A DNA stretch of 64,000 bases. Source: Escherichia phage S143_2. How positions within the stretch are numbered: position 1 is the first letter of the stretch; each line of letters opens with the position of its first letter. The notes below the pieces were generated by a model, which ran no database searches, had not been told where the DNA came from, and saw only the letters and a program-made list of their open reading frames with translations. Where the stretch lies: the sequence record MZ189261.1; one strand, written 5' to 3'. Below, one piece after another: positions 2,227 through 40,347 of this stretch. The translations under genes and the position numbers were made by a program.

Positions 2227-2427
2227 TCACAAGTTACGTTTAAAAATTTCTGCCACTTCAAGAAGTTCTTCTTTAGTAGCTGTATCGGTTTGTATTTTAT
2301 ATCGAATTTCTTTAAAGCGTTCTTTAAAGGCTTCAGCTGATTCGATATCAAAAAATCTTTGGATAAGCCGGAATTCCCGGAGCACAGCTTTATCAAAAAG
2401 TTCCAAGTCCACGTTATATGTTCTCAT
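2227..2427 (-). CDS. small protein downstream-adjacent to rIIA (rIIA.1-like)
   Basis: 66-aa ORF with GAAGAG SD; position equivalent to T4 rIIA.1. Confidence 0.5.
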   Translation of the reverse strand: MRTYNVDLELFDKAVLREFRLIQRFFDIESAEAFKERFKEIRYKIQTDTATKEELLEVAEIFKRNL

Positions 2428-2519
2428 AATATTCTCTTCAGTAGATTCCTAGGGCACTATTACTAAAGACCATATAATCTATCATCTTATGTGTAATAGT
2501 GCCTCAGGCTATTCAGGAT

Positions 2520-3620
2520 TTATGCTGTGAAGATTTTATCCCACATCGCAACAACTGCATCTCGGTTATACTTCTTCCATACTGCTTCAGCACGTTTAAC
2601 TCGAGCTTCGTATGTATCAGTGAATTCTAATACAGCTTTTGTGTAAAGCGCAACTACTTCTTTCTTAGGAGTAGAGGAATCAATTTCTACACGCACAGTA
2701 TCTGGGTCGTATTCAAATGTCGCATGAGGATAATCCTTAAAAACTAACTGGATTACAGGGACACCTTTAGAGATGGCTTCAATAGAACTATTCTCTACTG
2801 TACCTGTGTCAGGACAAGTATTAATAAGTGCTTTAGCTGTTTTAAGACGTTCCATGATTTCACTGTGTGGAGCATCAATAATAACAGGATATTTAGCTGG
2901 TGGTGCCCATTTGCTTGGACAGTATCCTACACCATTTTCGCCTAGTGCTTTAATTGCTTCAAGAGCAACATCAGTGCGACGCATTTTAGTGTCATAACGT
3001 TGTGCACTAATAATCAGATCAGTCGCCGGAAGAACTTCAGGTTTCTCATTCAAACAAATAACCGGATAATCTTCGGCTTCAAACAACGGATTTGCTCGCC
3101 AATAATCATAATCAATTTTGTCAGTCAGACCTGAAGTCATATAACAATATTTGCGTTCAAATTCACGGAAGGCTTTAGTAGGAGCATAACTCTTACCACC
3201 ATTCTTATGAATTTGAATAGTCTGGTCCCAAATTTGAACAATGCCACGAGATACTGGTTCAAATGGTGTTGCCATAAAATTCTTATGAACTTTAGAGAGA
3301 CCTGCGTCTTTAATTGCCTGAACGGTTAGTTTAGTCGGTTCCATAGTAACAACAAAATCGTATTCATGGATGCCGGCTAGTTCAACAATCTTACGAGCCA
3401 TAGTATAACTCATACCTAGACTGAATTTAGTCAGATGACCAACAGGATGATGTGTAACTTTCCAGTCACCAAACGTGTCATTATCAAAGCCGATATAATC
3501 AATATCAGCACCGATGGACACAAGATATTTCAACACATTTAAATGTACTGCTTCAAGGCCACCTTGTACACGGTCAGGATTAAATGGGACTGCGCGAGAT
3601 GGGATAAACATAACTTTCAT
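2520..3620 (-). CDS. GT-B fold glycosyltransferase (GT4-like), candidate DNA glycosyl/arabinosyltransferase
   Basis: N-terminal MKVMFIPS...GG Rossmann start and C-terminal E-x7-E motif (ENSSIEAISKGVPVI); sits between rIIA.1 and gene 39. Confidence 0.6.
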   Translation of the reverse strand: MKVMFIPSRAVPFNPDRVQGGLEAVHLNVLKYLVSIGADIDYIGFDNDTFGDWKVTHHPVGHLTKFSLGMSYTMARKIVELAGIHEYDFVVTMEPTKLTVQAIKDAGLSKVHKNFMATPFEPVSRGIVQIWDQTIQIHKNGGKSYAPTKAFREFERKYCYMTSGLTDKIDYDYWRANPLFEAEDYPVICLNEKPEVLPATDLIISAQRYDTKMRRTDVALEAIKALGENGVGYCPSKWAPPAKYPVIIDAPHSEIMERLKTAKALINTCPDTGTVENSSIEAISKGVPVIQLVFKDYPHATFEYDPDTVRVEIDSSTPKKEVVALYTKAVLEFTDTYEARVKRAEAVWKKYNRDAVVAMWDKIFTA

Positions 3621-3629
3621 AATTAAGCC

Positions 3630-3663
3630 TTATTAAAATTAAAATGAAGCTCCCGAAGGAGCT
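3630..3663 (-). terminator. UUCG-tetraloop hairpin plus U-rich tail after gene 39
   Basis: minus-sense aagctcc-ttcg-ggagctt followed by cattttaatttt. Confidence 0.5.
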
Positions 3664-5480
3664 TAGGACATCCATTCTTTACGAAGTTCAGAATCATCAC
3701 CCAACAACATTTCAAAGAGTTCTTTCCAATTTTCAGGAAGTTTAACTACGTCGTACACAGGGTTCTGAATCATTTCACGATATTCTGACTTTTCAAGGGA
3801 GCCCAATCCCTTGATGTATCGAATACTATGCTTAGGCAGTGTATCTTTAGCTTCTTCATACTCAGCTACAGTATAAAACCATTTTTGAGTTTTGCCAATT
3901 TGTGCAATAATTACAGGCGTTTTAACAAAGCGAATACGTCCTTGTTCAAACAATTCAGGCCAATTACTAAAGAAAGCAAGCAAAGCCGGATAAATACTTC
4001 CAAGACCGTCATGATCGGCATCGGTCATAATTGCAATATTACGATAGTTCGTATTCTCTGCCTTTTCACCAAGAATAAGACCTGTGATAGCACAGATATC
4101 AAAGAGCTCTTTGTTCTTCATCATATCAGCATATGACATACCCCAGCTATTCATCACCTTACCACGTAATGGGAATCCGCCGTGTAGTTCACGGTCACGA
4201 ACATCAATGAGATAACCAATTGCCGAATCACCTTCTGTTAAAAACAATGTCGTATCTGCATCTTTACCACATTGGTTAGCTTTAATATGCTTATGAACCT
4301 TAGCTTTAGTTGCCTTTTTAGCTGCTTTAGTTTCTGCAGCCTTTTCTGCTGCCAATTTACGAGCTAATGCTGCTTCAACAATAGGCATAATCAAAGCTTC
4401 ATTTTTAAGAAGTGCCTGAGCAATTTTCTTAGCATCTAATTGGATATGATTACGAATATCACCATACGTTGACGTTAAACGTTCTTTAGTCTGAGAATCA
4501 AAACGCATGTTGCTCATGTCTCTAATAAACATCAACATTGTGAGACATTCTTTAACACGAGCTTTAGTGACTTCAATACCCTTATATTTCTTTTTAATGC
4601 CGGGCAAAAGATGTTCGCAGATATCATCCATTACACATTCAACATGATGACCACCATTTTTAGTATGAATGTTATTCACATAAGTTAAATGACGGAAGCC
4701 GTCTGGTGATGTTGTGAATGCTATAGAGACTTTATCATTTTCTTGAATGATGTTATCTTCACCAAATTGTTTAGCAAATCGTTTAAAATTACCATCAACC
4801 TTTTTACCATTAAATGTGAACTTGATATCAGGATAAACGACTGCCAATGTTTGAAGTCGGTCTAAAGTAATATCTAAATAAATTTGAGATAAATTATGCT
4901 CTTCAAATGAAGAGAAATCAGGAGTGAAGATTACTTTAGTGCCTTTACCTTTAGATTTCTTAGAAGACCATGATTTGTTTTCCATTCCGTTTGAACAGTT
5001 AACAGTGATTTCATTTTCGCCATCTGACGTGATGCCTGTAAACAACGTAGAGAAGATATTAGTTAAACTACTCCCGACGCCGTTCATACCACCAGTCTTA
5101 CGTTCAGAGTCATCGCCAAAGTTACCGCCAGCCTTTGGAATAGTCCAGGCTGCTACAGGCCCAGGAATTTGTTCACCTGTTTGATCGGTAACTAAACCTT
5201 GAGGAATACCACGTCCGTTATCTTCCACCGAAACTTGATTATTTTTAATTTGCACATCGATTTTATTTGCAAACTTAAATGATGTACGAATAGCTTCATC
5301 AACCGAGTTGTCAATAATCTCATCGATTAATTTAACCAGACCGGGAACATATTCAACTTGTTGATATTTACCAAACAAAAAACGCTCGTGGGCTTCTTTA
5401 GCCGAAGATCCAATATACATACCACTACGTTTCTTAATATGTTCTACATCTGATAATACCTTAATTTCATTTTTAATCAT
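3663..5480 (-). CDS. 39: DNA topoisomerase II large (ATPase) subunit, fused gp39+gp60 form
   Basis: 605 aa, MIKNEIKVLSDVEHIKKRSGMYIGS start, GyrB-like; length matches the unsplit 39/60 form. Confidence 0.9.
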   Translation of the reverse strand: MIKNEIKVLSDVEHIKKRSGMYIGSSAKEAHERFLFGKYQQVEYVPGLVKLIDEIIDNSVDEAIRTSFKFANKIDVQIKNNQVSVEDNGRGIPQGLVTDQTGEQIPGPVAAWTIPKAGGNFGDDSERKTGGMNGVGSSLTNIFSTLFTGITSDGENEITVNCSNGMENKSWSSKKSKGKGTKVIFTPDFSSFEEHNLSQIYLDITLDRLQTLAVVYPDIKFTFNGKKVDGNFKRFAKQFGEDNIIQENDKVSIAFTTSPDGFRHLTYVNNIHTKNGGHHVECVMDDICEHLLPGIKKKYKGIEVTKARVKECLTMLMFIRDMSNMRFDSQTKERLTSTYGDIRNHIQLDAKKIAQALLKNEALIMPIVEAALARKLAAEKAAETKAAKKATKAKVHKHIKANQCGKDADTTLFLTEGDSAIGYLIDVRDRELHGGFPLRGKVMNSWGMSYADMMKNKELFDICAITGLILGEKAENTNYRNIAIMTDADHDGLGSIYPALLAFFSNWPELFEQGRIRFVKTPVIIAQIGKTQKWFYTVAEYEEAKDTLPKHSIRYIKGLGSLEKSEYREMIQNPVYDVVKLPENWKELFEMLLGDDSELRKEWMS

Positions 5481-8457: not shown

Positions 8458-9135
8458 TTATCGCTGTTTTACACTTAACGGATCAGGATTCTCAGGGACA
8501 TCTTCAAGGCCAAGCGCATAACGCTGGGCATATTTTAACATCAAAATATCTTTAGCACAATCATGAATACTATCATGGGCAACGAATCCTTTTAGCGTAC
8601 CCATTGGTAATGGACACATACTTAATCCTCGTGTCAACGAGTAAGCTTCGATTGCCGTACGAATATCGCGTTGAGCCCAGAATTTAACCGGTTCTAATTT
8701 ATCAGTATCAATCTCTGGTTCAGGAACACCTTCATCACGATAGAGGTCACGAATCAAATCAACCAAGATCGGGAAGTCAAAGCTCATACCACGGCACCAC
8801 ATCTGTGATTTCCATTGGTCAACTTTATTAGCTCGACAATAATCTAAAAAGATTTTAATGCCTTCAAGCGTAGTGACATCGTCTTCAGACGGAGCCAAGT
8901 TTTTACGTGCTTCAGCCGATTGTTCTTTCCACCATTTCATAGTGGATTTAGCGAAAACTCGCTTCCCTTTCTGAGAAGCTAAATTAAATTTAATTCGCTT
9001 ACCTCGTTGAACAAGTTCTTCAAATGATTCAACAACTTCAGGGTCGGAATTATATGCAATAACCGCAAGGTCAATAACAGCCGCTTTTGATGTATTGCCG
9101 AATGTTTCAAAATCTATAATAACATCAGTGCTCAT
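8458..9135 (-). CDS. dexA: exonuclease A (DnaQ-like 3'-5' exonuclease)
   Basis: IIDFETFG exo motif, 225 aa, synteny with dda. Confidence 0.8.
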   Translation of the reverse strand: MSTDVIIDFETFGNTSKAAVIDLAVIAYNSDPEVVESFEELVQRGKRIKFNLASQKGKRVFAKSTMKWWKEQSAEARKNLAPSEDDVTTLEGIKIFLDYCRANKVDQWKSQMWCRGMSFDFPILVDLIRDLYRDEGVPEPEIDTDKLEPVKFWAQRDIRTAIEAYSLTRGLSMCPLPMGTLKGFVAHDSIHDCAKDILMLKYAQRYALGLEDVPENPDPLSVKQR

Positions 9136-9144
9136 AATTTTCTC

Positions 9145-10458
9145 TCAAATAAAATGGACGTCAAACCGACCACGAGTTGTGCCGACATACAATAACTGTT
9201 TAGCTAATTCTGAATCAGCGTAATGGATACACGGTGTATAAACAAAGGCCGTGTCAACAGACATACCCTGGGCCTTATGGAAGGTTGATACTGGTAGTGC
9301 CTTCACCTTAGTGAACATACGTTTAGCATCCCAGAATTCGCTCCATGGAGCTTTACCACCTTTATTCCAAAATTTGTATGTTTCTGCGGTCTTAGCCAAA
9401 AACAAATTGAACTTATAAAGCTCTTCTTCAGAAGAAATAACCTTTATATCTTCGCGGATGTATTCTTCATCATCCCCGTATGTTTCTACTGTAAGATTCC
9501 AGTATCGTATCATATATTCGCCTGAAACACCACGTGCTTTAACAAATGTAGACGTTTCTACAGCATCTCGAATACGAACGAATTGGCCGTTATTGAAAAG
9601 CATTTCGGTCATATTTTTACCATCTAGCTTATATGTCTTAGTAAATGGCTCTTGTAGAACAATGACTTCGTCTTTAATAAATGGTTTTTCTGTTTCAAGA
9701 AGTTTTCGGCGAATAATTGAATTTAACTTGTCCACCGACTTATTTGTGAATGCCATCATTCGATTTTCGAAAAGGTCTTCAGGAGTTTTAACGACGTTAA
9801 AATAGTTCATCATATACGATTTAAGGTCTGTATATCCATGAACACCGTGCCCATCAACTACTTTATCATAAATCCATTTCCCATTACGAATATCAGTCGC
9901 AACATCAATAATTGGTGCATTGCTACGTTTAACTTCTGTAAGGTTGCATTGCACGAAGTCTTTGTGGGTGAAGAAAGGACTTAGATACGCAGTTGATTCG
10001 CCTGGGTCTACCGGACGAATCTGGCAACGGTCGCCGATTCCAATTACTGTACACCATTTAGGGATACTAGCTAACATTATTTTAAACAGAGAACGGTCGC
10101 ACATTGACGCTTCATCAAATAACAGTACACGACACAAGGCTAAGTCTGGAACCTTTTTCTGTTCAAACAATACGTTTTCTTCGTATGTAGTTGGGTTGAT
10201 TTTAAGAATGCTATGAATAGTCGATGCTTCTTGACCAGCAAGTTTACTTAGAACCTTTTTAGCGGCATGTGTAGGGGCTGCTAAAATAATACCTGATTCT
10301 CCAGAAGAAATAAGGGCTTCAACGATGAATCTAGTAAGGGTTGTTTTACCTGTACCAGCAGGCCCATTAATAGTTACGTGATGTTTCTTTTCTTTAATAG
10401 CGTTCATAACAACGTTGAAGGCGTTTTTCTGGCCTTCAGTCAAATCATCAAATGTCAT
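9145..10458 (-). CDS. dda: Dda DNA helicase (SF1B)
   Basis: Walker A GPAGTGKTT, 437 aa, MTFDDLTEGQKNAF start typical of T4 Dda. Confidence 0.9.
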   Translation of the reverse strand: MTFDDLTEGQKNAFNVVMNAIKEKKHHVTINGPAGTGKTTLTRFIVEALISSGESGIILAAPTHAAKKVLSKLAGQEASTIHSILKINPTTYEENVLFEQKKVPDLALCRVLLFDEASMCDRSLFKIMLASIPKWCTVIGIGDRCQIRPVDPGESTAYLSPFFTHKDFVQCNLTEVKRSNAPIIDVATDIRNGKWIYDKVVDGHGVHGYTDLKSYMMNYFNVVKTPEDLFENRMMAFTNKSVDKLNSIIRRKLLETEKPFIKDEVIVLQEPFTKTYKLDGKNMTEMLFNNGQFVRIRDAVETSTFVKARGVSGEYMIRYWNLTVETYGDDEEYIREDIKVISSEEELYKFNLFLAKTAETYKFWNKGGKAPWSEFWDAKRMFTKVKALPVSTFHKAQGMSVDTAFVYTPCIHYADSELAKQLLYVGTTRGRFDVHFI

Positions 10459-22853: not shown

Positions 22854-23402
22854 TTAACGAGCCCATTTGATAATTTCTGTAATCAAATTATTACGTTCGC
22901 TTGCATTAAATCCTATAACTTTGTTAGCACCATCATGATTAAGTAATTGATACGTTTGGATTTTGTTATGAATTGCAAACTCTTCAAAATATGAAATGAC
23001 TGTATTAAAACCAAATGAAGACAAAGTAATAAGGTCGTCTTCAAAACTTTCAGTCATTTCGTTACGTGTTAAAATAATTGTGAACACATCATGGTTTTGG
23101 CAAAGACGAACATAATCCTGTTCATAAACGTCAAGAACCGAGTCCACATCTTGTCGAATACGTCCATAAACCCAGTTACTAATATATCCACGGTCTAACA
23201 GATAAATCTTAGTAGGGTCTAAATAATTCAACATCGTTTCGAAACAGCCAACTTCATTTCGAGACTTAACATCGAAACGTCCATCAACTGTTCGTTTAGG
23301 GAAATCAATCTTTACATATCTTTCACTAATTTCCATTATGTCATTAATGAAAGTTGTTTTACCAGCATTATCCGGGCCATCTACTAAAATAATTTTAGCC
23401 AT
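22854..23402 (-). CDS. P-loop nucleotide kinase, thymidylate-kinase-like
   Basis: Walker A DGPDNAGKTT and LLDRGYIS (DRY-like); 182 aa; at the bgt position. Confidence 0.5.
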   Translation of the reverse strand: MAKIILVDGPDNAGKTTFINDIMEISERYVKIDFPKRTVDGRFDVKSRNEVGCFETMLNYLDPTKIYLLDRGYISNWVYGRIRQDVDSVLDVYEQDYVRLCQNHDVFTIILTRNEMTESFEDDLITLSSFGFNTVISYFEEFAIHNKIQTYQLLNHDGANKVIGFNASERNNLITEIIKWAR

Positions 23403-23403
23403 T

Positions 23404-24303
23404 TTATTCCTCGATTACGACATCTTCATATTTAGGTATATTATACGGTGAAGAAATTAAAGCATTAAAGTAGATGAACTCACCAAGACCTGGATGGAAT
23501 ACTTCTTCAGGATTTTCGAAATATTGAATCTTCGGACGTCCTTTAAGAATTTGATAGTACTCAGTTTTAGTTGGTTTAAAAATTCGAATCAACGCTTCTT
23601 CAGGATACTTATTTCTGTCGAAGCTATTATTTGGATCGGTTATATAAAGCGGTTGGCCTAATTGAATTGCACATTCAACCACTTGTTCAAAACGATAGCA
23701 CGGGTCACTAATTCGAAATGGATGAAAAATACCATCTAGATGAATAGGAGCCAAATCACCTACAAGACGCTGCATGATGGAAGGACGTATAACTTTCTGC
23801 GTTACGATAATCTTATTACCATCTGCACCTGCGTTAACCAGCACTTCTTTTTGACGTTCATTCAACACAGTAGTTTGAAGTGAACGATTAACCGACAACA
23901 TATCAGTTTTTAAGAATTCGTCAATATAAAAACGTGGTTTATTAGGGTCTGCAGTGATATTGAAATTGAATTCCACATCAAAAGCGCCGTCATATCCGGT
24001 GATATCTGTGATTAGAAAATCACAATCATAATAAGCAATTAATGAATCAACCACAAATTCATTTTCAGACCAGAAATATTTACGAGTGTTATACGCGTTA
24101 TCTTTATACCATAATGGAACAAACTTAAATTCTGGGAAAAGACGTTCACATTCTTTAATATCAGATGCATTACGTGGATATGTAATCACATCACCAGGAT
24201 TAGCACGGTGCAAATGAAGTTGGAAGTTGCCATCCTTAAGGATAGCGTACTGTCCAGTTTCATAAGACCGCATACTCAAGATAGGTACGCGGAAAATAGC
24301 CAT
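23404..24303 (-). CDS. hypothetical protein (299 aa) at the bgt position
   Basis: start overlaps stop of gene 42 (TAATG); no motif recognised. Confidence 0.5.
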   Translation of the reverse strand: MAIFRVPILSMRSYETGQYAILKDGNFQLHLHRANPGDVITYPRNASDIKECERLFPEFKFVPLWYKDNAYNTRKYFWSENEFVVDSLIAYYDCDFLITDITGYDGAFDVEFNFNITADPNKPRFYIDEFLKTDMLSVNRSLQTTVLNERQKEVLVNAGADGNKIIVTQKVIRPSIMQRLVGDLAPIHLDGIFHPFRISDPCYRFEQVVECAIQLGQPLYITDPNNSFDRNKYPEEALIRIFKPTKTEYYQILKGRPKIQYFENPEEVFHPGLGEFIYFNALISSPYNIPKYEDVVIEE

Positions 24304-25019
24304 TAGTCAAGGAATCCTTTAACATAATCAAAATCACGTTCAAACACATGGGCACTTACCATGGTATGAGTATAATCACCAACTTCTACACCGCATTCGT
24401 TAGCGATATAATGAAGTAATTTTCCTTGGAGATAAAAATCCAACTGCATAACAACAGCACAGTTCTGAGAACGCATATGACAGTGGGTATAAAGCTTACC
24501 ATCACGAATATAATAAGTTACTGAGTCAGTACATGGATATTCAAGCGTTTCGTCTGAATCAAGCAAAGCCTGATCAGAACTTTCTAGAATTTGGAACACA
24601 ACTCTTCGAGAGTTAGGCTTCTCTTTAAGTTCTTTTAGAAGAGCTGGTAATTGGGCCGCAATGCGAGGACCATAGAAAGTGTTGAAGTTCGCCGGCAAAA
24701 CATCTGATTTTGGTTTAGAAATAAATTTAGCGACATTAGGATATGCCTTAAACGCTTCTTCTGCGTTGGTACCACCAGAAATCATAAACTTCCAGAAGTC
24801 TTCGGCATATTCATAAGAGATGCGGTTAATACGTGGGTCAGTCATTTTGAATGATGACGGAGTGTCAACAACTACTGTCATAGACCCAATTTCATTACAA
24901 CGTCCAATACGAGAATCAGTTACGAATTCCGGGTTTTCTAAAATTTCACGATTGACTGCTTTAAATGCGGTTTGAAAATCTGCGGCTTTGATATATTTCA
25001 TTGTGTTATGTTTTCCCAT
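24303..25019 (-). CDS. 42: dCMP hydroxymethylase-like (thymidylate synthase family)
   Basis: 238 aa; EYPCTDSVTYYIRD...MRSQN resembles the catalytic-Cys region of T4 gp42; synteny. Confidence 0.65.
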   Translation of the reverse strand: MGKHNTMKYIKAADFQTAFKAVNREILENPEFVTDSRIGRCNEIGSMTVVVDTPSSFKMTDPRINRISYEYAEDFWKFMISGGTNAEEAFKAYPNVAKFISKPKSDVLPANFNTFYGPRIAAQLPALLKELKEKPNSRRVVFQILESSDQALLDSDETLEYPCTDSVTYYIRDGKLYTHCHMRSQNCAVVMQLDFYLQGKLLHYIANECGVEVGDYTHTMVSAHVFERDFDYVKGFLD

Positions 25020-25297: not shown

Positions 25298-26458
25298 TCA
25301 TTCTGGGTACCTCAAAGCGTCGTCAGAGTTAGTTATATCAATAATAGATATAGAATTTTCTGATAACCCATTTTTAGATAACTGACGTTTATAATATCTT
25401 TCACAATATGTACACGTCGTCCCGCAGATTTCATTAGCACAATCGAAATCCGGATGTTTGAACCACCTTTTTTCTAAAAAGCCATCTAACAAAGAGGTTT
25501 CAATATTTACCGTATGTGAAAACTCGGTCTCATTTTCAAGAGTGAAAATGGTCTCTAAAGGCTTCCACAATTCCAACAAATTACCTTCAAATTTTTCAGA
25601 AGCATAAGCTTCAAGAACTTTCAAAATGTAGTCTGTGCTACCTGTACGTCCTGAAACTTTGAATTGAGTGATACCGATATCATTATAAAGTTTCAAATCT
25701 TGAGGACGAACAAAACGAGTTCTCAACCAGTTAAATGGGTCTGTATCACGAGCTTTAATACAGTGCTGCATTGGATATCCATTTAAGGATTTGGCATCAT
25801 CTACTGTAACATCGGTGCTATGGAAAATATAGCAAGAGTCACGATAGCTACAATGTGTTGTATACCCTTTACCAGCATTAGAGCAGAATTCATTTACGAG
25901 AACTTCAAATATTATATTGTTCTTATTACAAAACTCTGCTGCACGCTTCAGGAAAGAAACTGAACGGTTCTTATGAATTCCACAGCAGACCTTTTTGATA
26001 TTATATTGGTCATGCAAGTATTTGATTTGAGTTACAGCATCGACATGTAGAATTGTTGAAACTTCAATCTCAATGTCTTTATTGACTTCACGAACAATTT
26101 CCATAACAACAGGGTTAGCGATAGTAATACGCCATACGCCTATTGACCAAAGATACTGAACATAATCCTGAATAGCTTTCTTCTTCCACTCAACTAGTTC
26201 TCTTTTTGAACCAGGATTTATCGTGTTGAGTGTATAGTTAAAGCAAATACCTAATTCGTTACAACGTTTAACGTAATCTTCTAACATCTTTTTGTCAACG
26301 TCGGGAAGCCTAAAATCAGGTCTGGCTGCTACAAAAGCCATTTCTCTTGTAGAGCCGTATACTTCGTTTATCAAGCTATTAGGATAAGTTTTATTGAGCT
26401 CTACGATTTTATCAAGAAGAGCTAAATCAAAATTCGTTCCGATTTTAAAGGTATTCAT
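25298..26458 (-). CDS. U32-like protein with C-terminal CX3CX2C cysteine cluster
   Basis: 386 aa; EVLVNEFC...C...C resembles U32 core; C-terminal CANEICGTTCTYC. Confidence 0.5.
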   Translation of the reverse strand: MNTFKIGTNFDLALLDKIVELNKTYPNSLINEVYGSTREMAFVAARPDFRLPDVDKKMLEDYVKRCNELGICFNYTLNTINPGSKRELVEWKKKAIQDYVQYLWSIGVWRITIANPVVMEIVREVNKDIEIEVSTILHVDAVTQIKYLHDQYNIKKVCCGIHKNRSVSFLKRAAEFCNKNNIIFEVLVNEFCSNAGKGYTTHCSYRDSCYIFHSTDVTVDDAKSLNGYPMQHCIKARDTDPFNWLRTRFVRPQDLKLYNDIGITQFKVSGRTGSTDYILKVLEAYASEKFEGNLLELWKPLETIFTLENETEFSHTVNIETSLLDGFLEKRWFKHPDFDCANEICGTTCTYCERYYKRQLSKNGLSENSISIIDITNSDDALRYPE

Positions 26459-26513: not shown

Positions 26514-26900
26514 TTATAGATTCGGTTTATATGATTTAAATGTTTCGAATTCGCCTTTATTCATAAGAGCTTTGAATTCGTCAGGACGCATAGCTTTGTC
26601 GTCGATAATCCAATCATATACTGGTTTATGTGTTAGCAAATTATGGTACTTCAATCCAATGTTTGCCAAGTTCTGAATCAGACTTGGGAGAATGTCAATT
26701 GCTATACGACCAGGACCGACTGACTTCATACCGCGAGCAGTGTAAAGCGTTATGGTATGCCCTGCATCATACAGGGCATTAATGGCAGACACCATTTCGA
26801 CGTCTGGTTTGAAGTTCACGTAATCACGATTGTTATTCCACTCTGTTATACAATCATCGACATCAAAACAAAGATTAAGCATGTTTTTTACACGGTGCAT
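26514..26900 (-). CDS. HAD-superfamily phosphatase-like protein
   Basis: FDVDDCIT near N-terminus, TLYTARG, WIIDDKA; start overlaps upstream stop. Confidence 0.45.
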   Translation of the reverse strand: MHRVKNMLNLCFDVDDCITEWNNNRDYVNFKPDVEMVSAINALYDAGHTITLYTARGMKSVGPGRIAIDILPSLIQNLANIGLKYHNLLTHKPVYDWIIDDKAMRPDEFKALMNKGEFETFKSYKPNL

Positions 26901-28585
26901 TAGATTCGTTCCCATTGATGAGTGATATCGCCACCGATTGGACGATAAGAAACACCAGTTTCTTTATCAGTTAGTACCCATTTACCAGGATTTTTTGTAA
27001 TCAGAGTAGCCGTTACAGGTTCTGCTACATCATAACTAATAGTGCCGTCCTGAAGTACACGGCCCATGTTACGTAATTGCTTAGTCAGAAGTTCCATACC
27101 TTTATAATATGCGGCTACCGCTTTAAGTGGATTATTCTTGAAATAACCACCTAATGCAATCCAGATAATTGCCACTGCCAAATGATGATACTCGTTAAAC
27201 GAACTCATCTTTCCATATTTGTAAACTAATGGATTGATGTTAATAGTCACATTACAAGTTGTTTCATCAATAGTAAACTGACCCCAGGTCGGATTAGCGT
27301 TGAATTCATCATAACCTGAAACAGCGTAAAGCACTTTAGCTTCATCATACAATTTTGGCCCGTAAATCTTGGTTTCACCAAAATATCCACGAGGGTCAAT
27401 AAACTTGACTTCGCCGTTATCAGTAATCATAGTATTACTGAAGTTCGGGTCACCATGAATAACAGAGTACTGTCCCTGAGAACGGTTATGATAACGAATA
27501 AGGTGTTCTAAAGCTTGTTTCAGCATTGGCTTCAGACGCCCAATCTTAGTGTAGTTCACATGTGTGATTTTACCAAATGAATCAATCAATGGTTGAATAC
27601 TTTCACAACGATCAATAACTTTCGTATAGAACTCTTTAGTGAAATCACGACGAACAGTTTCAGGACTTACAAAATAAGTGTCTGTGCTGAATTTCAGTGC
27701 GTCTAAAATTGCATCAACAATTTGTGGACGAGCAAGACTTGATTTGGATTTAATATATTCAAATGCCGGCTTACCTTTAATGCGTTCCATTTCAAAGTTA
27801 TTTTCATTAACAGAAACTAACTGAGGAACTGAATCTGATTTCACTTTAAGATACCATGAAATCTCATCTTTCTGAAGAGCTCGGCCCTGTTCGGTTAATG
27901 CGAATTTAGTTACAGTTTCTTCACCAATTTCAACTGCATTAAAACTACGATTAAGTTCACGAACTTCATGAGCTTTTTCAAGTTTAGGCATATCACCTAA
28001 ATCAATTAGATTCATAAGCTCTGATTTATTGAATGCGCTGCCGTAAAGGAATTCTACGAAATCGCGTCCTTTGCAGTATTCATGAATTTCCTCATCAGTA
28101 GAACCCATATAGAATTCCCAGTCTTTGAACTGATAAATTCCTACAACATTACCACCTGTTGAACCTACGTTAGTGATATTTTCACCGTCGAAATTATATC
28201 GACATTCGTCGCCCTTAACATAGATTGCGTTAACATTCCAAGACCATGAACCAAAATCAGGAATAATATCACACCAGTTAACAATTACATTATGGCCGTC
28301 TAAATCTTTGTGTAATTTAGCAAGAGCATAAGCGGAACCATACGCTTCATCAACTGTACGAATAGTCACATTGAACCCTTCTTGCTCACAATAAGCTCGA
28401 ACAGTTTCAGCAAATTTTGAATGAACTACTACAATAATTTCATCTGCGCCAAGGTCAGAATAAATTGTATACAAATTGCTCAGAATAGTGTCTTGTTTAT
28501 AGTTAACAAGCACCTTAGGAATATGATGCGTTATTGGATACAAACGAGTTGCCAGTCCAGCACCAAGAATAACAGCTTTTTTCAT
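26900..28585 (-). CDS. bifunctional sugar-1-phosphate nucleotidyltransferase (N) / sugar kinase (C)
   Basis: N-terminal MKKAVILGAGLATRLYPIT...PK NTase signature; C-terminal HGDPNFSN...IDPRG Brenner motif; 561 aa. Confidence 0.7.
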   Translation of the reverse strand: MKKAVILGAGLATRLYPITHHIPKVLVNYKQDTILSNLYTIYSDLGADEIIVVVHSKFAETVRAYCEQEGFNVTIRTVDEAYGSAYALAKLHKDLDGHNVIVNWCDIIPDFGSWSWNVNAIYVKGDECRYNFDGENITNVGSTGGNVVGIYQFKDWEFYMGSTDEEIHEYCKGRDFVEFLYGSAFNKSELMNLIDLGDMPKLEKAHEVRELNRSFNAVEIGEETVTKFALTEQGRALQKDEISWYLKVKSDSVPQLVSVNENNFEMERIKGKPAFEYIKSKSSLARPQIVDAILDALKFSTDTYFVSPETVRRDFTKEFYTKVIDRCESIQPLIDSFGKITHVNYTKIGRLKPMLKQALEHLIRYHNRSQGQYSVIHGDPNFSNTMITDNGEVKFIDPRGYFGETKIYGPKLYDEAKVLYAVSGYDEFNANPTWGQFTIDETTCNVTININPLVYKYGKMSSFNEYHHLAVAIIWIALGGYFKNNPLKAVAAYYKGMELLTKQLRNMGRVLQDGTISYDVAEPVTATLITKNPGKWVLTDKETGVSYRPIGGDITHQWERI

Positions 28586-28626: not shown

Positions 28627-28770
28627 CTAGTTAAAGCATTCATACTTTGCTTGTAGTCCAATCATAATCCATCCGGTTATAAGAGTCGGAATCATTACTG
28701 GAGCCGTTAAGCTCCAGTAGATAGTCATGACAAGCATCAATAGTAAAAGTCCTATTGTTATTGCTTTCAT
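28627..28770 (-). CDS. small hydrophobic protein (47 aa, below cutoff)
   Basis: ATGA overlap with upstream stop; hand translation MKAITIGLLLLMLVMTIYW... Confidence 0.3.
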   Translation of the reverse strand: MKAITIGLLLLMLVMTIYWSLTAPVMIPTLITGWIMIGLQAKYECFN

Positions 28771-29402
28771 TGTTCGCCTCGTAACATGGCACCTAGTGCA
28801 CCGCCAGGGTGGAACTTAAGGAAGTCATTAGAGGTAAATCCACGTTCAGACGAAAGGTTGATAGCAAACGTATCGATAAGCGCTAACAACAATGTAGTGG
28901 ACATAGTCGGAGCCAGAGAATTCTCATCAACCTCTACTGCGATGCCTGTACAGAAAGAGTAATCAAAAAGGGCTTCATTTTCTTGTGGAATGTCTGGGTT
29001 ACAATGCAACAGAATCTGTTTGACGTTCGGACGAATCATTTTAAGATGCTTAGCCACGCCTATCATTTCTTCAGTTTTACCAGAACGACTAATATGAATC
29101 AACACATCATTAGGCGCAATGAATCCTGCATCACCGTGAGAATAATGCCCGGTGTTCAAGTACATACTCGGGATACCAAGTGAAGCAAATGTCTCAGAAG
29201 CTTTAGTTGCAATATTAGCATTCTTACCCACACCTGTAATAATTACACGACTTTCATAATTACTAAGTCCAGGGCGTCGAAGAGTTTCTAGAATAGCATT
29301 ATAACGAGCAGGGTTTTGACTAATTACTTTGGCCATAGCGGCCAAAGAAGAAGCTTGTTTTATGATTGCGTCAATAGCGATAGTAATAGGAGTAGTTTTC
29401 AT
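28767..29402 (-). CDS. SIS-domain sugar-phosphate isomerase, KdsD-like arabinose-5-phosphate isomerase
   Basis: VIITGVGKN, HGDAG, APTMSTT, FHPGGALG motifs line up with the KdsD SIS domain; 211 aa. Confidence 0.7.
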   Translation of the reverse strand: MKTTPITIAIDAIIKQASSLAAMAKVISQNPARYNAILETLRRPGLSNYESRVIITGVGKNANIATKASETFASLGIPSMYLNTGHYSHGDAGFIAPNDVLIHISRSGKTEEMIGVAKHLKMIRPNVKQILLHCNPDIPQENEALFDYSFCTGIAVEVDENSLAPTMSTTLLLALIDTFAINLSSERGFTSNDFLKFHPGGALGAMLRGEQ

Positions 29403-37550: not shown

Positions 37551-37779
37551 TACATGCTTCAGCCATTTTAAGAATAGAGCCAGGAGTATCGTTGTCCATT
37601 ATATTAAAGCTAAATTCGATAGCCCAGTCGGTGCAGACATGAACTGCTTTAACTTCATTGCCTTCAATGCGTAATGGCTCAATCCAATACTTGATAGTGT
37701 TCTCGAATCCATCATCATCTTTAATGTCCATTTCAACTTCAAGCCTGAGTCCAGCATTGTTAAATTCATCTAAAGTCAT
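37522..37779 (-). CDS. hypothetical protein (85 aa)
   Basis: ORF track. Confidence 0.5.
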   Translation of the reverse strand: MTLDEFNNAGLRLEVEMDIKDDDGFENTIKYWIEPLRIEGNEVKAVHVCTDWAIEFSFNIMDNDTPGSILKMAEACIEDAYNDED

Positions 37780-38795
37780 TGTGTTGCCTCAATATAAAGT
37801 TCGTTGGAATATTTGACCAGCGCTTCTCTGTCTTCGTCTGAGATATCTGGAATCGCGTCAATATATTCTTTAATGATATCTTGAAGTGATTTAATCTCGA
37901 TTTCCTGGTCGTCATCAGATTCAACACTGTTATCAACTTTAGAAACCATACGAAGAGAGTGAACTACTTTTTCAAGTTCAGATTCAAACTTAGTCAACTC
38001 TGAATCAATTTCTGATACTATAACACGTAAGGCTAGATTAGTATAATCAGAATAATTGATTTTGCCTTTAAACGGATAAGTGATTCGTCGATGCCATGTT
38101 GTTTCATTAGGAATAAATTCCATACGTTCAACATCAGTGTCAAATACCCAGAATCCGCGCGGGTCGTTCTCATCGCCTGCAGTAAGGGTCCATGGTGTCC
38201 CAATATATTTGACGTTAGCAGCTTCAGAGATTGTGTGGAAGTGGCCGGACCAGACTTGTTTATAGGTCTTTAAGAAATCAGGTTCAAGCCCATGAGACTT
38301 CATTCCTTTATAGAAATAAAAGCCATTCAGTTCCCAGTGCCCAACACAATAAGCGGCAGAAGAAGTCTTGATGTGCTCTAAGATTTCACCTGTATTTTCT
38401 TCACACATCCATGGAACGATATCAATCAGACATCCGTCAAAATCTACAGTAGTTGGATGCTCGTAAATAGTAAAGTTTTCAAATTGAGTTAACAATTCAG
38501 AAACAGTGTTAGGTGTTATTGTATTCTTAAACGCCATGTCATGATTTCCTATCGTGACATGAACGTGAATGCCTGCTTTAGAAATCATATCAACGATTTC
38601 ACGATTGAATTCCATTGTACGATGTGTTATTGCTTTACGGACGTCAAACCAATCACCGTACTGAATCCAAGTTTTAATCCCGTGTTTCTTAGAGTATTCA
38701 ATTGCTTGACGAATACCATCACGTTGAATATCTTGAACCCATGGGTCATCTTGTTTGACTCCGATATGGAAGTCGCCTAAGTGCAAAATTTTCAT
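37776..38795 (-). CDS. 47: recombination endonuclease subunit gp47 (SbcD/Mre11-like)
   Basis: MKILHLGDFHIG phosphoesterase motif I, GNHD, 339 aa. Confidence 0.9.
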   Translation of the reverse strand: MKILHLGDFHIGVKQDDPWVQDIQRDGIRQAIEYSKKHGIKTWIQYGDWFDVRKAITHRTMEFNREIVDMISKAGIHVHVTIGNHDMAFKNTITPNTVSELLTQFENFTIYEHPTTVDFDGCLIDIVPWMCEENTGEILEHIKTSSAAYCVGHWELNGFYFYKGMKSHGLEPDFLKTYKQVWSGHFHTISEAANVKYIGTPWTLTAGDENDPRGFWVFDTDVERMEFIPNETTWHRRITYPFKGKINYSDYTNLALRVIVSEIDSELTKFESELEKVVHSLRMVSKVDNSVESDDDQEIEIKSLQDIIKEYIDAIPDISDEDREALVKYSNELYIEATQ

Positions 38796-39590: not shown

Positions 39591-39806
39591 TTATCTCATT
39601 AAATTAAAATAAAAACGTCCATCCTCTTCAATACAGAACTCATACTCAACCGGAGTCCCATTTATTGAAAATGACACGTCATGTGGGTTCAAAGGGTCGA
39701 TGTCAAAATTAATTTTAAATTCACGACCCAACAGTTTTACCAAATAAGGGATTGCTTCGTCAAAAGGTTCTTCTAAGTAGTTAGAGATGTCAATTGTCAT
39801 CCTCAT
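39591..39806 (-). CDS. hypothetical protein (start uncertain)
   Basis: ORF track 39591..39884 trimmed because it overlaps the gp55 end. Confidence 0.35.
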
Positions 39807-40347
39807 ATAAAAAATCCAAACTAGGCGAATCGCTAACAACTTCCTTCTTTTCAGCCCCAGGAGCTTTATAAGCGGATTCTTCATAATGCGTCATTTTATC
39901 GTAGATGTCTTGAATAAACGTTTCATCTACCAACGCTACCATATCATCGTCATGACTGTCGTAGACATTATGAACGAAGTAACTATATTTCTTTGCAACT
40001 TCCTTACGTTCTTTTTTGATACGTTGGACAAAAGCATTAAAACAAGCTCGAGTTATGTATGCATGTGGGTTATTGTACTTAGTTTCGTCGAAATTATGAA
40101 GTCCCTTAATAGAGGCTTCAATCCCATCTGCAATCATCTCCTGCTTCCAAGACTGGGTATATCCTGAAAAGTTGAAACGTTTGGACAGGCCTTCGGCGAT
40201 AAGCATAATTGCTAAACCGATGGTATCATTCTGACGAATAATTTTGTTTGGGTCTTTATTATTTAAGAGCTCCTTTTTCCACTCGATTATAGCGGCGAGA
40301 AGCTCTTTATTATTCACATAGTTATTTTTAGGTTTTTGTTCAGTCAT
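39790..40347 (-). CDS. 55: late-transcription sigma factor gp55
   Basis: 185 aa, sigma region-2-like block [24 protein letters not shown]. Confidence 0.9.

What the first reader, a model, noticed from the sequence alone, without database searches (positions are those of the whole stretch)
2520..3620. GT-B glycosyltransferase at the rIIA.1-gene 39 junction, candidate hmC arabinosyltransferase
A 366-aa GT4-like glycosyltransferase (E-x7-E motif) sits where T4 carries gene 60 and mobA, and gene 39 here is the unsplit 605-aa form. It is unrelated in sequence to T4 alpha-gt or beta-gt as far as I can judge, and no alpha-gt lies between genes 47 and 55. It is the most likely acceptor-side enzyme for the sugar cassette. 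It follows the gene-39 terminator with no own promoter seen, so its expression route is unclear.
Basis: partly seen in the sequence, partly recalled or inferred. Interest (0 to 1): 0.7.

Follow-up and report, generated by a model that had tools for sequence, protein, structure and literature searches.

The report
Known phage DNA arabinosyltransferase gene
This gene is the already published RB69 ORF003c-type glycosyltransferase, whose crystal structure is solved; it most likely adds the second arabinose to the sugar-coated cytosines of RB69-like phage DNA, so the finding is real but not new and its proposed "hmC" acceptor is out of date.

Summary
The 366-aa ORF at 2520..3620 (-) is real. It lies at the same coordinates as RB69p003/ORF003c and is 363/366 identical to it. 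It is about 99% identical to the crystallised "phage HY126 glycosyltransferase" (PDB 9IQZ; 9IR0 with UDP). Thomas et al. 2018 already proposed it as RB69's arabinosyltransferase.

The "hmC" acceptor is outdated. RB69-like DNA carries arabinosyl-5-hydroxycytosine (Lee 2026), and the window's thymidylate-synthase homologue has the 5-hydroxy-dCMP synthase signature (Asn186).

The cassette holds a second, unrelated GT (299 aa, 23404..24303). That GT occurs in 348 phage records, including mono-pentosylated Thanatos. The 366-aa family occurs in 211 records only: once in di-arabinosylated Mosigviruses and twice in tri-arabinosylated Acinetobacter phages. There, homologues gp76+gp77 (41-44% identical) added the third arabinose to DNA in vitro.

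Best reading: a UDP-arabinofuranose-dependent enzyme that extends the DNA-bound sugar. Already known; low interest.

The parts
2520..3620 (-). 366-aa GT-B glycosyltransferase (RB69 ORF003c/gp3 orthologue); proposed second DNA arabinosyltransferase
3628..3631 (-). Shine-Dalgarno-like AAGG, 7 nt upstream of the ATG
   Evidence: Read directly from the sequence. It is unpaired in the predicted RNA fold.
3647..3664 (-). Hairpin (7-bp stem, UUCG loop) overlapping the gene 39 stop codon, followed by an interrupted U-tract (CAUUUUAAUUUUAAU); probably a leaky terminator or RNA-stabilising element
   Evidence: Terminator scan and RNA fold. Read-through is inferred, not shown.
3663..5480 (-). Gene 39, unsplit 605-aa topoisomerase II large subunit, immediately upstream in the same orientation
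   Evidence: ORF. RB69 annotation. T4 has the split 39/60 arrangement.
2227..2427 (-). rIIA.1, the downstream neighbour
   Evidence: ORF; RB69 annotation.
23404..24303 (-). 299-aa cassette glycosyltransferase (RB69 gp46:47 orthologue, intact here); proposed first, base-proximal arabinosyltransferase
   Evidence: ORF. It matches RB69 ORF046c and ORF047c in two pieces. It has no similarity to the 366-aa GT. It occurs in 348 phage records, including Thanatos. Its role is proposed in Lee 2026.
24303..25019 (-). 238-aa thymidylate-synthase homologue with the 5-hydroxy-dCMP synthase signature (Cys163, RSQN with Asn186, Asp194)
   Evidence: Pfam Thymidylat_synt. Near-identical to PDB 9IQC/9IR2/9IQU; alignment to classical ThyA places Asn at the D169-equivalent position. 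The signature is defined in Lee 2026.
22854..23402 (-). 182-aa nucleotide (thymidylate-like) kinase of the cassette
   Evidence: 98% identical to RB69p045, annotated thymidylate kinase. Conserved in the Acinetobacter cassettes.
25298..26458 (-). 386-aa U32-peptidase-like protein inside the Mosigvirus cassette; role unknown
   Evidence: Pfam Peptidase_U32. Absent from all six Acinetobacter-type cassettes examined.
26514..26915 (-). 133-aa phosphatase-like protein (RB69 gp51; analogue of HY126 AfhF)
   Evidence: 98% identical to RB69p051. Function as described in Lee 2026, citing He 2026.
26900..28585 (-). 561-aa bifunctional sugar kinase / UDP-sugar pyrophosphorylase (RB69 gp52:53; analogue of HY126 AfhE)
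   Evidence: Pfam NTP_transferase plus weak kinase-family hits. Function as described in Lee 2026, citing He 2026.
28767..29402 (-). 211-aa SIS-domain arabinose-5-phosphate isomerase (RB69 gp55)
   Evidence: Pfam SIS. RB69 annotation.

Best explanation
The ORF encodes a soluble GT-B glycosyltransferase. It is the Mosigvirus orthologue of RB69 gp3/ORF003c and of the crystallised HY126 glycosyltransferase. It binds a UDP-sugar in the cleft between its two Rossmann-like domains.

The proposed donor is UDP-D-arabinofuranose made by the phage cassette at about 22.8-29.4 kb. After replication, the enzyme would transfer a second arabinofuranose, in beta-1,3 linkage, onto the alpha-arabinofuranose that the 299-aa cassette GT has already attached to O5 of 5-hydroxycytosine in phage DNA. 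The product would be the beta-D-Araf-(1->3)-alpha-D-Araf-5-hydroxy-dC that predominates in RB69-like virions.

Expression is most simply explained by read-through from gene 39 transcripts across a leaky hairpin, followed by translation from the gene's own Shine-Dalgarno sequence.

Shown:
- the identity of the gene;
- the fold;
- UDP binding by the ~99%-identical crystallised protein;
- the product chemistry in RB69 and NP phages;
- DNA sugar-chain extension in vitro by the homologues DLP3 gp76+gp77.

Inferred:
- that this protein performs the second step;
- the donor and the linkage;
- the expression route.
For: Identity:
- Same coordinates as RB69p003 and 99% identical to it.
- ~99% identical to PDB 9IQZ/9IR0, 'phage HY126 glycosyltransferase' and 'with UDP'.

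Fold:

Conserved residues, invariant across members of 35-44% identity:
- G20-G21;
- R208 and R214, with the 6-residue spacing I recall for the GT4 phosphate-binding pair (from memory);
- E276 and E281;
- the GVPV motif.

Pathway context:
- The full cassette is in the window.
- The ThyA homologue has the 5hodCMP-synthase Asn signature.

Distribution:
- The cassette GT is in 348 phage records. This family is in 211.
- It is absent from Thanatos, which the literature reports as mono-arabinosylated with a single GT.
- There is one copy in Mosigviruses, which carry mono- plus di-arabinosyl cytosine: RB69, NP at a 1:4 ratio, Bas46/47.
- There are two tandem copies inside the cassette in Acinetobacter phages. 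Of these, DLP3 is reported as tri-arabinosylated.

Biochemistry of homologues:
- DLP3 gp77 and gp76 are 44% and 41% identical. Together they added a third arabinose to RB69 DNA from UDP-Araf in vitro.

Published proposals:
- The same role is proposed in Lee 2026 and in the Durham-collection paper.
Against: - No direct assay or knockout of this protein was available to me. Lee 2026 tested only the DLP3 enzymes, and neither worked alone.
- The first arabinosylation step has not been reconstituted by anyone I could read. DLP3 gp79 was inactive on 5hoC DNA, so the division of labour between the two GTs rests on comparative genomics.
- The nearest folds are retaining enzymes, yet the two linkages differ in anomeric configuration (alpha, then beta). 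One of the two GTs must therefore behave atypically, and this is unresolved.
- He et al. 2026 and Mahler et al. 2025 could not be read. They probably contain direct data and could revise the step assignment.
- Read-through expression is untested.
Confidence: 0.75

Rival explanations
1. It is the base-proximal transferase: it puts the first arabinose directly on the modified cytosine.
For: - It was the only GT-like protein that HMM methods recognised in RB69 in 2018.
- The first step has not been reconstituted with the other GT. DLP3 gp79 was inactive on 5hoC DNA.
Against: - The family is absent from about 137 cassette-bearing phage records, including mono-pentosylated Thanatos, which still modifies its cytosines.
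- The 299-aa GT is universally adjacent to the 5hodCMP synthase.
- The homologues gp76+gp77 act on already arabinosylated DNA.
- The acceptor base is 5hoC, not hmC.
Confidence: 0.1
2. It acts on both steps or before DNA synthesis. For example, it could be a processive or partner-dependent enzyme working with the 299-aa GT, or it could modify nucleotides rather than polymerised DNA.
For: - DLP3 gp76 and gp77 were active only together, which hints at cooperative action in this family.
- The cassette has a dedicated nucleotide kinase.
Against: - Mosigviruses have only one member of the family, so the gp76/gp77-type pairing is not available.
- Extension by the homologues was shown on virion DNA.
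- Mixed mono and di products (1:4 in NP) fit an incomplete post-replicative second step.
Confidence: 0.1
3. It is a glycosyltransferase for a non-DNA acceptor (lipid, polysaccharide, protein or small molecule) and is unrelated to DNA modification.
For: All the closest structural neighbours act on non-DNA acceptors: sucrose-phosphate synthase, BshA, PimA, LPS and O-antigen GTs.
Against: - In all six Acinetobacter-type loci the homologues are embedded in the DNA-arabinosylation cassette.
- Homologues modify DNA in vitro.
- The family is confined to phages that make poly-arabinosylated cytosine.
Confidence: 0.03

Closest known systems
RB69 ORF003c / gp3 (NP_861693.1) and the phage HY126 glycosyltransferase (PDB 9IQZ apo, 9IR0 with UDP)
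   Different: Only three substitutions relative to RB69 and a few relative to HY126. Nothing functional is expected to differ.
Acinetobacter phage DLP3 gp77 and gp76 (tandem paralogues)
   Same: Same family (44% and 41% identity), same invariant residues, same cassette partners. Together they extend the arabinose chain on DNA from UDP-Araf in vitro.
   Different: In DLP3 there are two copies inside the cassette and both are required for the third sugar. Here there is one copy, located about 20 kb from the cassette at the rIIA.1-39 junction, and the chain stops at two sugars.
Cassette glycosyltransferase (RB69 gp46:47; window 23404..24303)
   Same: Encoded by the same phage in the same pathway. 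Lee 2026 also predict it to be a GT-B enzyme.
   Different: It has no detectable sequence similarity. It is present in all cassette-bearing lineages (348 records versus 211). It is the proposed first, alpha-linking transferase, acting on the base.
T4 alpha-glucosyltransferase (AGT, PDB 1Y6F/1XV5)
   Different: - 10% identity, with no HMMER-level similarity.
- It ranks only 35th among PDB folds.
- It lies at a different genomic site.
- Its sugar is glucose.
- Its acceptor is the hydroxymethyl group of hmC rather than a sugar on 5hoC.
Retaining GT4-type GT-B enzymes (sucrose-phosphate synthase 6KIH, BshA, PimA, WaaG and others)
   Different: - No Pfam or NCBIfam GT4 model matches.
- The E-x7-E motif is replaced by E-x4-E.
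- The acceptor is a DNA-borne sugar.
- The proposed product linkage is beta, whereas GT4 enzymes retain configuration. Retention has not been checked against the donor's anomer.
T4 beta-glucosyltransferase (BGT)
   Same: A phage GT-B DNA glycosyltransferase.

Membership tests
RB69 ORF003c / HY126 glycosyltransferase orthologue group | Near-identical full-length sequence at the rIIA.1-gene 39 junction of a Mosigvirus | tested here: met
   363/366 identity at identical coordinates. ~99% identity to 9IQZ. 155 Mosigvirus records at >=95% identity.
RB69 ORF003c / HY126 glycosyltransferase orthologue group | Binds UDP | not testable with these tools
   The PDB entry 9IR0 title, 'phage HY126 glycosyltransferase with UDP', shows it for a ~99%-identical protein. 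Coordinates and the paper were not readable here.
RB69 ORF003c / HY126 glycosyltransferase orthologue group | Transfers arabinofuranose onto arabinosylated 5hoC in DNA | not testable with these tools
   Shown only for the homologues DLP3 gp76+gp77. For this protein it is inferred from distribution and synteny.
GT-B fold glycosyltransferases | Two Rossmann-like alpha/beta domains with strong structural matches to solved GT-B enzymes | tested here: met
CAZy GT4 / Pfam Glycos_transf_1, Glyco_trans_1_4, Glyco_trans_4-like N | Match to a GT4 sequence model above its curated threshold | tested here: not met
   No Pfam hit even at E<=10 and no NCBIfam hit. Divergent family members give only sub-threshold hits: GT4-conflict at 12.6-17.1 bits against a cut-off of 26, and Glyco_trans_1_4 at 16.2 against 27.
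CAZy GT4 / Pfam Glycos_transf_1, Glyco_trans_1_4, Glyco_trans_4-like N | E-x7-E motif in the C-terminal domain | tested here: not met
   The canonical site reads E276-x4-E281, with Gly273 at the position of the first Glu. The only literal E-x7-E is at residues 86-94 in the N-terminal domain. The marginal relative P0015 does have E-x7-E at the canonical site.
CAZy GT4 / Pfam Glycos_transf_1, Glyco_trans_1_4, Glyco_trans_4-like N | Closest structural neighbours are GT4 enzymes | tested here: met
   BshA, PimA, PimB', WaaG, WlaC, PglA, the tll1591 enzyme and MshA-like enzymes fill ranks 2-34.
CAZy GT4 / Pfam Glycos_transf_1, Glyco_trans_1_4, Glyco_trans_4-like N | Retaining stereochemistry | not testable with these tools
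   The second sugar in the product is beta-linked. The anomeric configuration of the donor was not available to me.
T4 alpha-glucosyltransferase family | Detectable sequence homology to T4 AGT | tested here: not met
   The family profile finds no PDB sequence other than its own at E<=10, although AGT structures are in the PDB. Thomas 2018 needed custom HMM and HHpred searches to see any link.
T4 alpha-glucosyltransferase family | Gene located between genes 47 and 55 | tested here: not met
   Only ORFs of 57-107 aa lie between 38795 and 39790.
T4 alpha-glucosyltransferase family | Acceptor is 5-hydroxymethylcytosine made by a dCMP hydroxymethylase | tested here: not met
   The window's thymidylate-synthase homologue has Asn186 at the ThyA D169-equivalent position and is near-identical to 9IQC. 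Lee 2026 show that such enzymes make 5-hydroxy-dCMP and that RB69 DNA has no hydroxymethyl bridge.
T4 beta-glucosyltransferase family | Sequence or close structural similarity to T4 BGT | tested here: not met

The most novel reading that the evidence does not exclude
The alpha-linked first sugar and the beta-linked second sugar presumably come from one UDP-Araf donor. If so, one of the phage's two GT4-like enzymes must invert configuration.

If the donor is the usual alpha-D-type nucleotide sugar, this protein would be an inverting beta-1,3-arabinofuranosyltransferase built on a scaffold whose nearest structural relatives all retain configuration. Its E-x4-E variant of the E-x7-E motif might then mark that switch.

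A second open possibility is that the hairpin between gene 39 and this gene throttles its expression and so sets the mixed mono:di sugar ratio seen in virions.

Both points may already be settled in He et al. 2026, which I could not read.
Probability: 0.25. Interest if true: 0.4.

Novelty: already known. Interest (0 to 1): 0.12.

Why it matters
Poly-arabinosylated cytosine shields RB69-like and Acinetobacter phages from restriction enzymes, CRISPR-Cas and DNA glycosylases. The length of the sugar chain appears to change which defences work. That is relevant to choosing and engineering therapeutic phages.

This gene is the likely determinant of the second sugar. The gene, its structure and its proposed role are all already published, so the scan adds no discovery.

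There is one practical point. Nearly all GenBank records still call it "hypothetical protein" or mislabel the homologues as "DNA alpha-glucosyltransferase". No Pfam or NCBIfam model covers it. Annotation therefore lags the literature.

Tried and rejected
- **Family libraries.** Pfam, NCBIfam and PHROGs gave no informative name. There were no hits apart from a PHROG of unknown function.
- **PDB by sequence.** Single-sequence and family-profile searches found only the protein's own structure.
- **Key papers not held.** I tried to read Mahler et al. 2025 (Cell Host Microbe) and He et al. 2026 (Nat Chem Biol, the HY126 Afh pathway and presumably the source of 9IQZ/9IR0) by DOI, PubMed id and text search. 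Neither is held.
  - Their content is cited only through other papers.
  - I could not confirm that the 'Aat' deleted in Bas46 is this gene. From memory I believe Aat denotes the extra-arabinose transferases.
- **Promoter search.** Sigma-70-like matches were fewer than in shuffled sequence (8 versus 13.8). There was no TATAAATA late motif and no full MotA box within 580 nt upstream. I rejected the lone TTGGCA-17-TATACT site at 3898..3870 as evidence.
- **IMG/VR scan.** It returned only Mosigvirus and Acinetobacter-type loci and no new lineages.
- **Divergent family members.** P0007-P0010 have no close match in GenBank phages, and their genomic contexts could not be fetched.
- **Remnant or paralogue hypotheses.** There is no trace of the gene at the JS98 or T4 junction, and no paralogue elsewhere in the window.
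- **Recent foreign acquisition.** GC content of 0.37-0.41 matches the neighbouring genes.

Full report
**Observation.** The ORF exists exactly as described: 2520..3620 on the minus strand, 366 aa, ATG start. An AAGG Shine-Dalgarno-like sequence lies 7 nt upstream. It sits between rIIA.1 (2227..2427) and an unsplit 605-aa gene 39 (3663..5480). T4 has genes 60, 60.1 and mobA in the same interval. A 7-bp hairpin with a UUCG loop (3664..3647) overlaps the gene 39 stop codon and is followed by an interrupted U-tract. Between gene 47 (37776..38795) and gene 55 (39790..40347) there are only ORFs of 57-107 aa, so there is no alpha-gt (the RB69 annotation agrees). GC content matches the neighbouring genes.

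One detail fails. The only literal E-x7-E is at residues 86-94 in the N-terminal half, where about 1.4 such pairs are expected by chance. The canonical C-terminal site reads E276-x4-E281 (VENSSIEAISKGVPVI).

**Identity.** The window is a Mosigvirus (RB69-like), about 97.5-97.9% identical to many isolates over its first 8 kb. The ORF occupies the same coordinates as RB69p003 (RB69ORF003c) and is 363/366 identical to it. About 155 Escherichia and Shigella phage records carry it at >=95% identity. Fifty-five Acinetobacter phage records carry homologues of about 42% identity, two per genome. It is about 99% identical to PDB 9IQZ and 9IR0, titled "phage HY126 glycosyltransferase" and "...with UDP", released 2025-07-16. 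HY126 is one of the phages that match the window.

**Fold and family.** Sequence methods are blind to this protein.
- Pfam gives no hit at E<=10 and NCBIfam gives none. The only family match is a PHROG of unknown function.
- A family profile finds no PDB sequence other than its own.
- An exhaustive HMMER search of 1.84 billion representative proteins returns only 11 clusters at E<=0.001.

- T4 beta-glucosyltransferase is not in the top 60.

Across the nine family members of 35-44% identity, the following are invariant: G20-G21, R208, R214, E276, E281 and the GVPV motif. A marginal relative (P0015) has a true E-x7-E at the site where the core family has E-x4-E.

**Literature.**
- Thomas et al. 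2018 (PMC6024577) already singled out ORF003c as RB69's putative arabinosyltransferase with a GT-B fold.
- Lee et al. 2026 (PMC13326640) revised the chemistry. RB69 cytosines are mono- and di-arabinosylated 5-hydroxycytosine. The disaccharide form is beta-D-Araf-(1->3)-alpha-D-Araf linked by an ether to C5.
- Lee et al. propose RB69 gp46:47 as the first transferase and gp3 as "beta-arabinosyltransferase 2".
- They also show that DLP3 gp76+gp77 together add a third arabinose to RB69 DNA from UDP-Araf in vitro. Single enzymes, including the cassette GT gp79 on 5hoC DNA, were inactive.
[quoted passage not shown] It measured mono:di at 1:4 in phage NP, whose copy is 98.6% identical to this ORF.
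- Bas46 and Bas47 are described as doubly arabinosylated, and deletion of an arabinosyltransferase "Aat" in Bas46 changed defence sensitivity. These reports reach me through citing papers only.
- Mahler et al. 2025 and He et al. 2026 were not readable here.

**Tests run here on the interpretation.**
1. *Acceptor.* The window's 238-aa thymidylate-synthase homologue (24303..25019) is near-identical to PDB 9IQC/9IR2/9IQU. It aligns its RSQN to the RSxD of classical ThyA, which gives Asn186 at the D169-equivalent position. Lee 2026 use that residue as the signature of 5-hydroxy-dCMP synthases. The phage therefore makes 5hoC, not hmC.
2. *A second GT.* The cassette contains all of the following:
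   - kinase (22854..23402);
   - GT (23404..24303);
   - ThyA-like (24303..25019);
   - U32-like (25298..26458);
   - phosphatase (26514..26915);
   - kinase/pyrophosphorylase (26900..28585);
   - isomerase (28767..29402).

   Its 299-aa GT is intact and unrelated to the 366-aa protein.
3. *Distribution.* The 299-aa GT occurs in 348 phage records across Mosigvirus, Dhakavirus, Klebsiella, Serratia, Yersinia, Proteus, Edwardsiella, Shewanella and Acinetobacter phages. The 366-aa family occurs in 211 records, essentially Mosigvirus plus Acinetobacter phages. JS98 has the cassette GT but only two small ORFs at the rIIA.1-39 junction.
4. *Synteny.* In all six Acinetobacter-type loci examined, the two paralogues abut the cassette.
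5. *Dose and chemistry.* Zero, one and two family members correspond to reported chains of one sugar (Thanatos), two (RB69, NP, Bas46/47) and three (DLP3).

**Conclusion.** The best-supported reading (confidence about 0.75) is a UDP-arabinofuranose-dependent DNA glycosyltransferase that adds the second, beta-1,3-linked arabinose to arabinosyl-5-hydroxycytosine after replication. A cooperative or pre-replicative role (about 0.1) and a non-DNA acceptor (about 0.03) remain as minor rivals.

Expression is probably by read-through from gene 39 across a leaky hairpin. No convincing promoter was found, but this is inference only.

One mechanistic point is open. The two linkages differ in anomeric configuration, yet both GTs resemble retaining enzymes, so one of them must be atypical.

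**Verdict.** The feature is real and correctly recognised as a DNA-sugar glycosyltransferase. However, it has been a published candidate since 2018, it has a solved structure, and its role has been refined in 2025-2026 papers. It is already known and of low interest. The only practical residue is that public annotation and family libraries do not yet reflect the literature.

Noticed in passing
window 2448-2463 and 2493-2508: A 16-nt inverted repeat (88% complementary, 29-nt loop) lies between the stop of the GT gene (2520) and the start of rIIA.1 (2427). It could be a terminator, a processing site or a promoter-bearing element for rIIA.1/rIIA.
   Followed up: no
window 25298-26458: A 386-aa U32-peptidase-like ORF sits inside the Mosigvirus arabinosylation cassette but is absent from all six Acinetobacter-type cassettes examined. 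Its role in the pathway is unknown; Lee 2026 only guess a reductase.
   Followed up: partly
window 23404-24303 and 26900-28585; L004 4598-5498 and 8095-9781: The RB69 reference record splits the cassette GT (ORF046c/047c) and the kinase/pyrophosphorylase (ORF052c/053c) into two ORFs each. Both are intact single ORFs in this window (299 and 561 aa), consistent with sequencing errors in the old record.
   Followed up: yes
phage collection: One record labelled 'Tegunavirus' holds a homologue of the 366-aa GT at below 60% identity. Yersinia phage TG1 (H97), which I recall (from memory, not checked) as the Tegunavirus type phage, appears only in the list for the cassette GT. The record was never displayed, so its identity and context are unknown.
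   Followed up: no
L003 (JS98) 2423-2746 and 2821-2982: JS98's 588-bp unannotated gap between rIIA.1 and gene 39 contains minus-strand ORFs of 107 and 53 aa that are unrelated to the GT. This junction appears to be a hotspot for variable cargo: T4 has 60/60.1/mobA there, Mosigviruses have the GT, and JS98 has small ORFs.
   Followed up: partly
L012 8846-9951: In one Acinetobacter-type phage genome (169,947-bp contig), one of the two GT paralogues is split by a frameshift (8846-9412 and 9412-9951). Thomas 2018 also noted this for Acj9. If the frameshift is real, that phage should make a shorter sugar chain.
   Followed up: no
proteins P0007-P0010: Four divergent full-length family members (35-39% identity) come from unidentified sources and have no match above 60% identity in GenBank phages. 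This implies unsampled phage lineages with extended arabinosylation or related glycan-extending enzymes.
   Followed up: partly
window 3870-3898: A sigma-70-like site, TTGGCA-17-TATACT (10 of 12 matches), lies on the minus strand inside the 3' end of gene 39, about 250 nt upstream of the GT start. The region has fewer such matches than shuffled sequence, so it is not evidence of a promoter.
   Followed up: no
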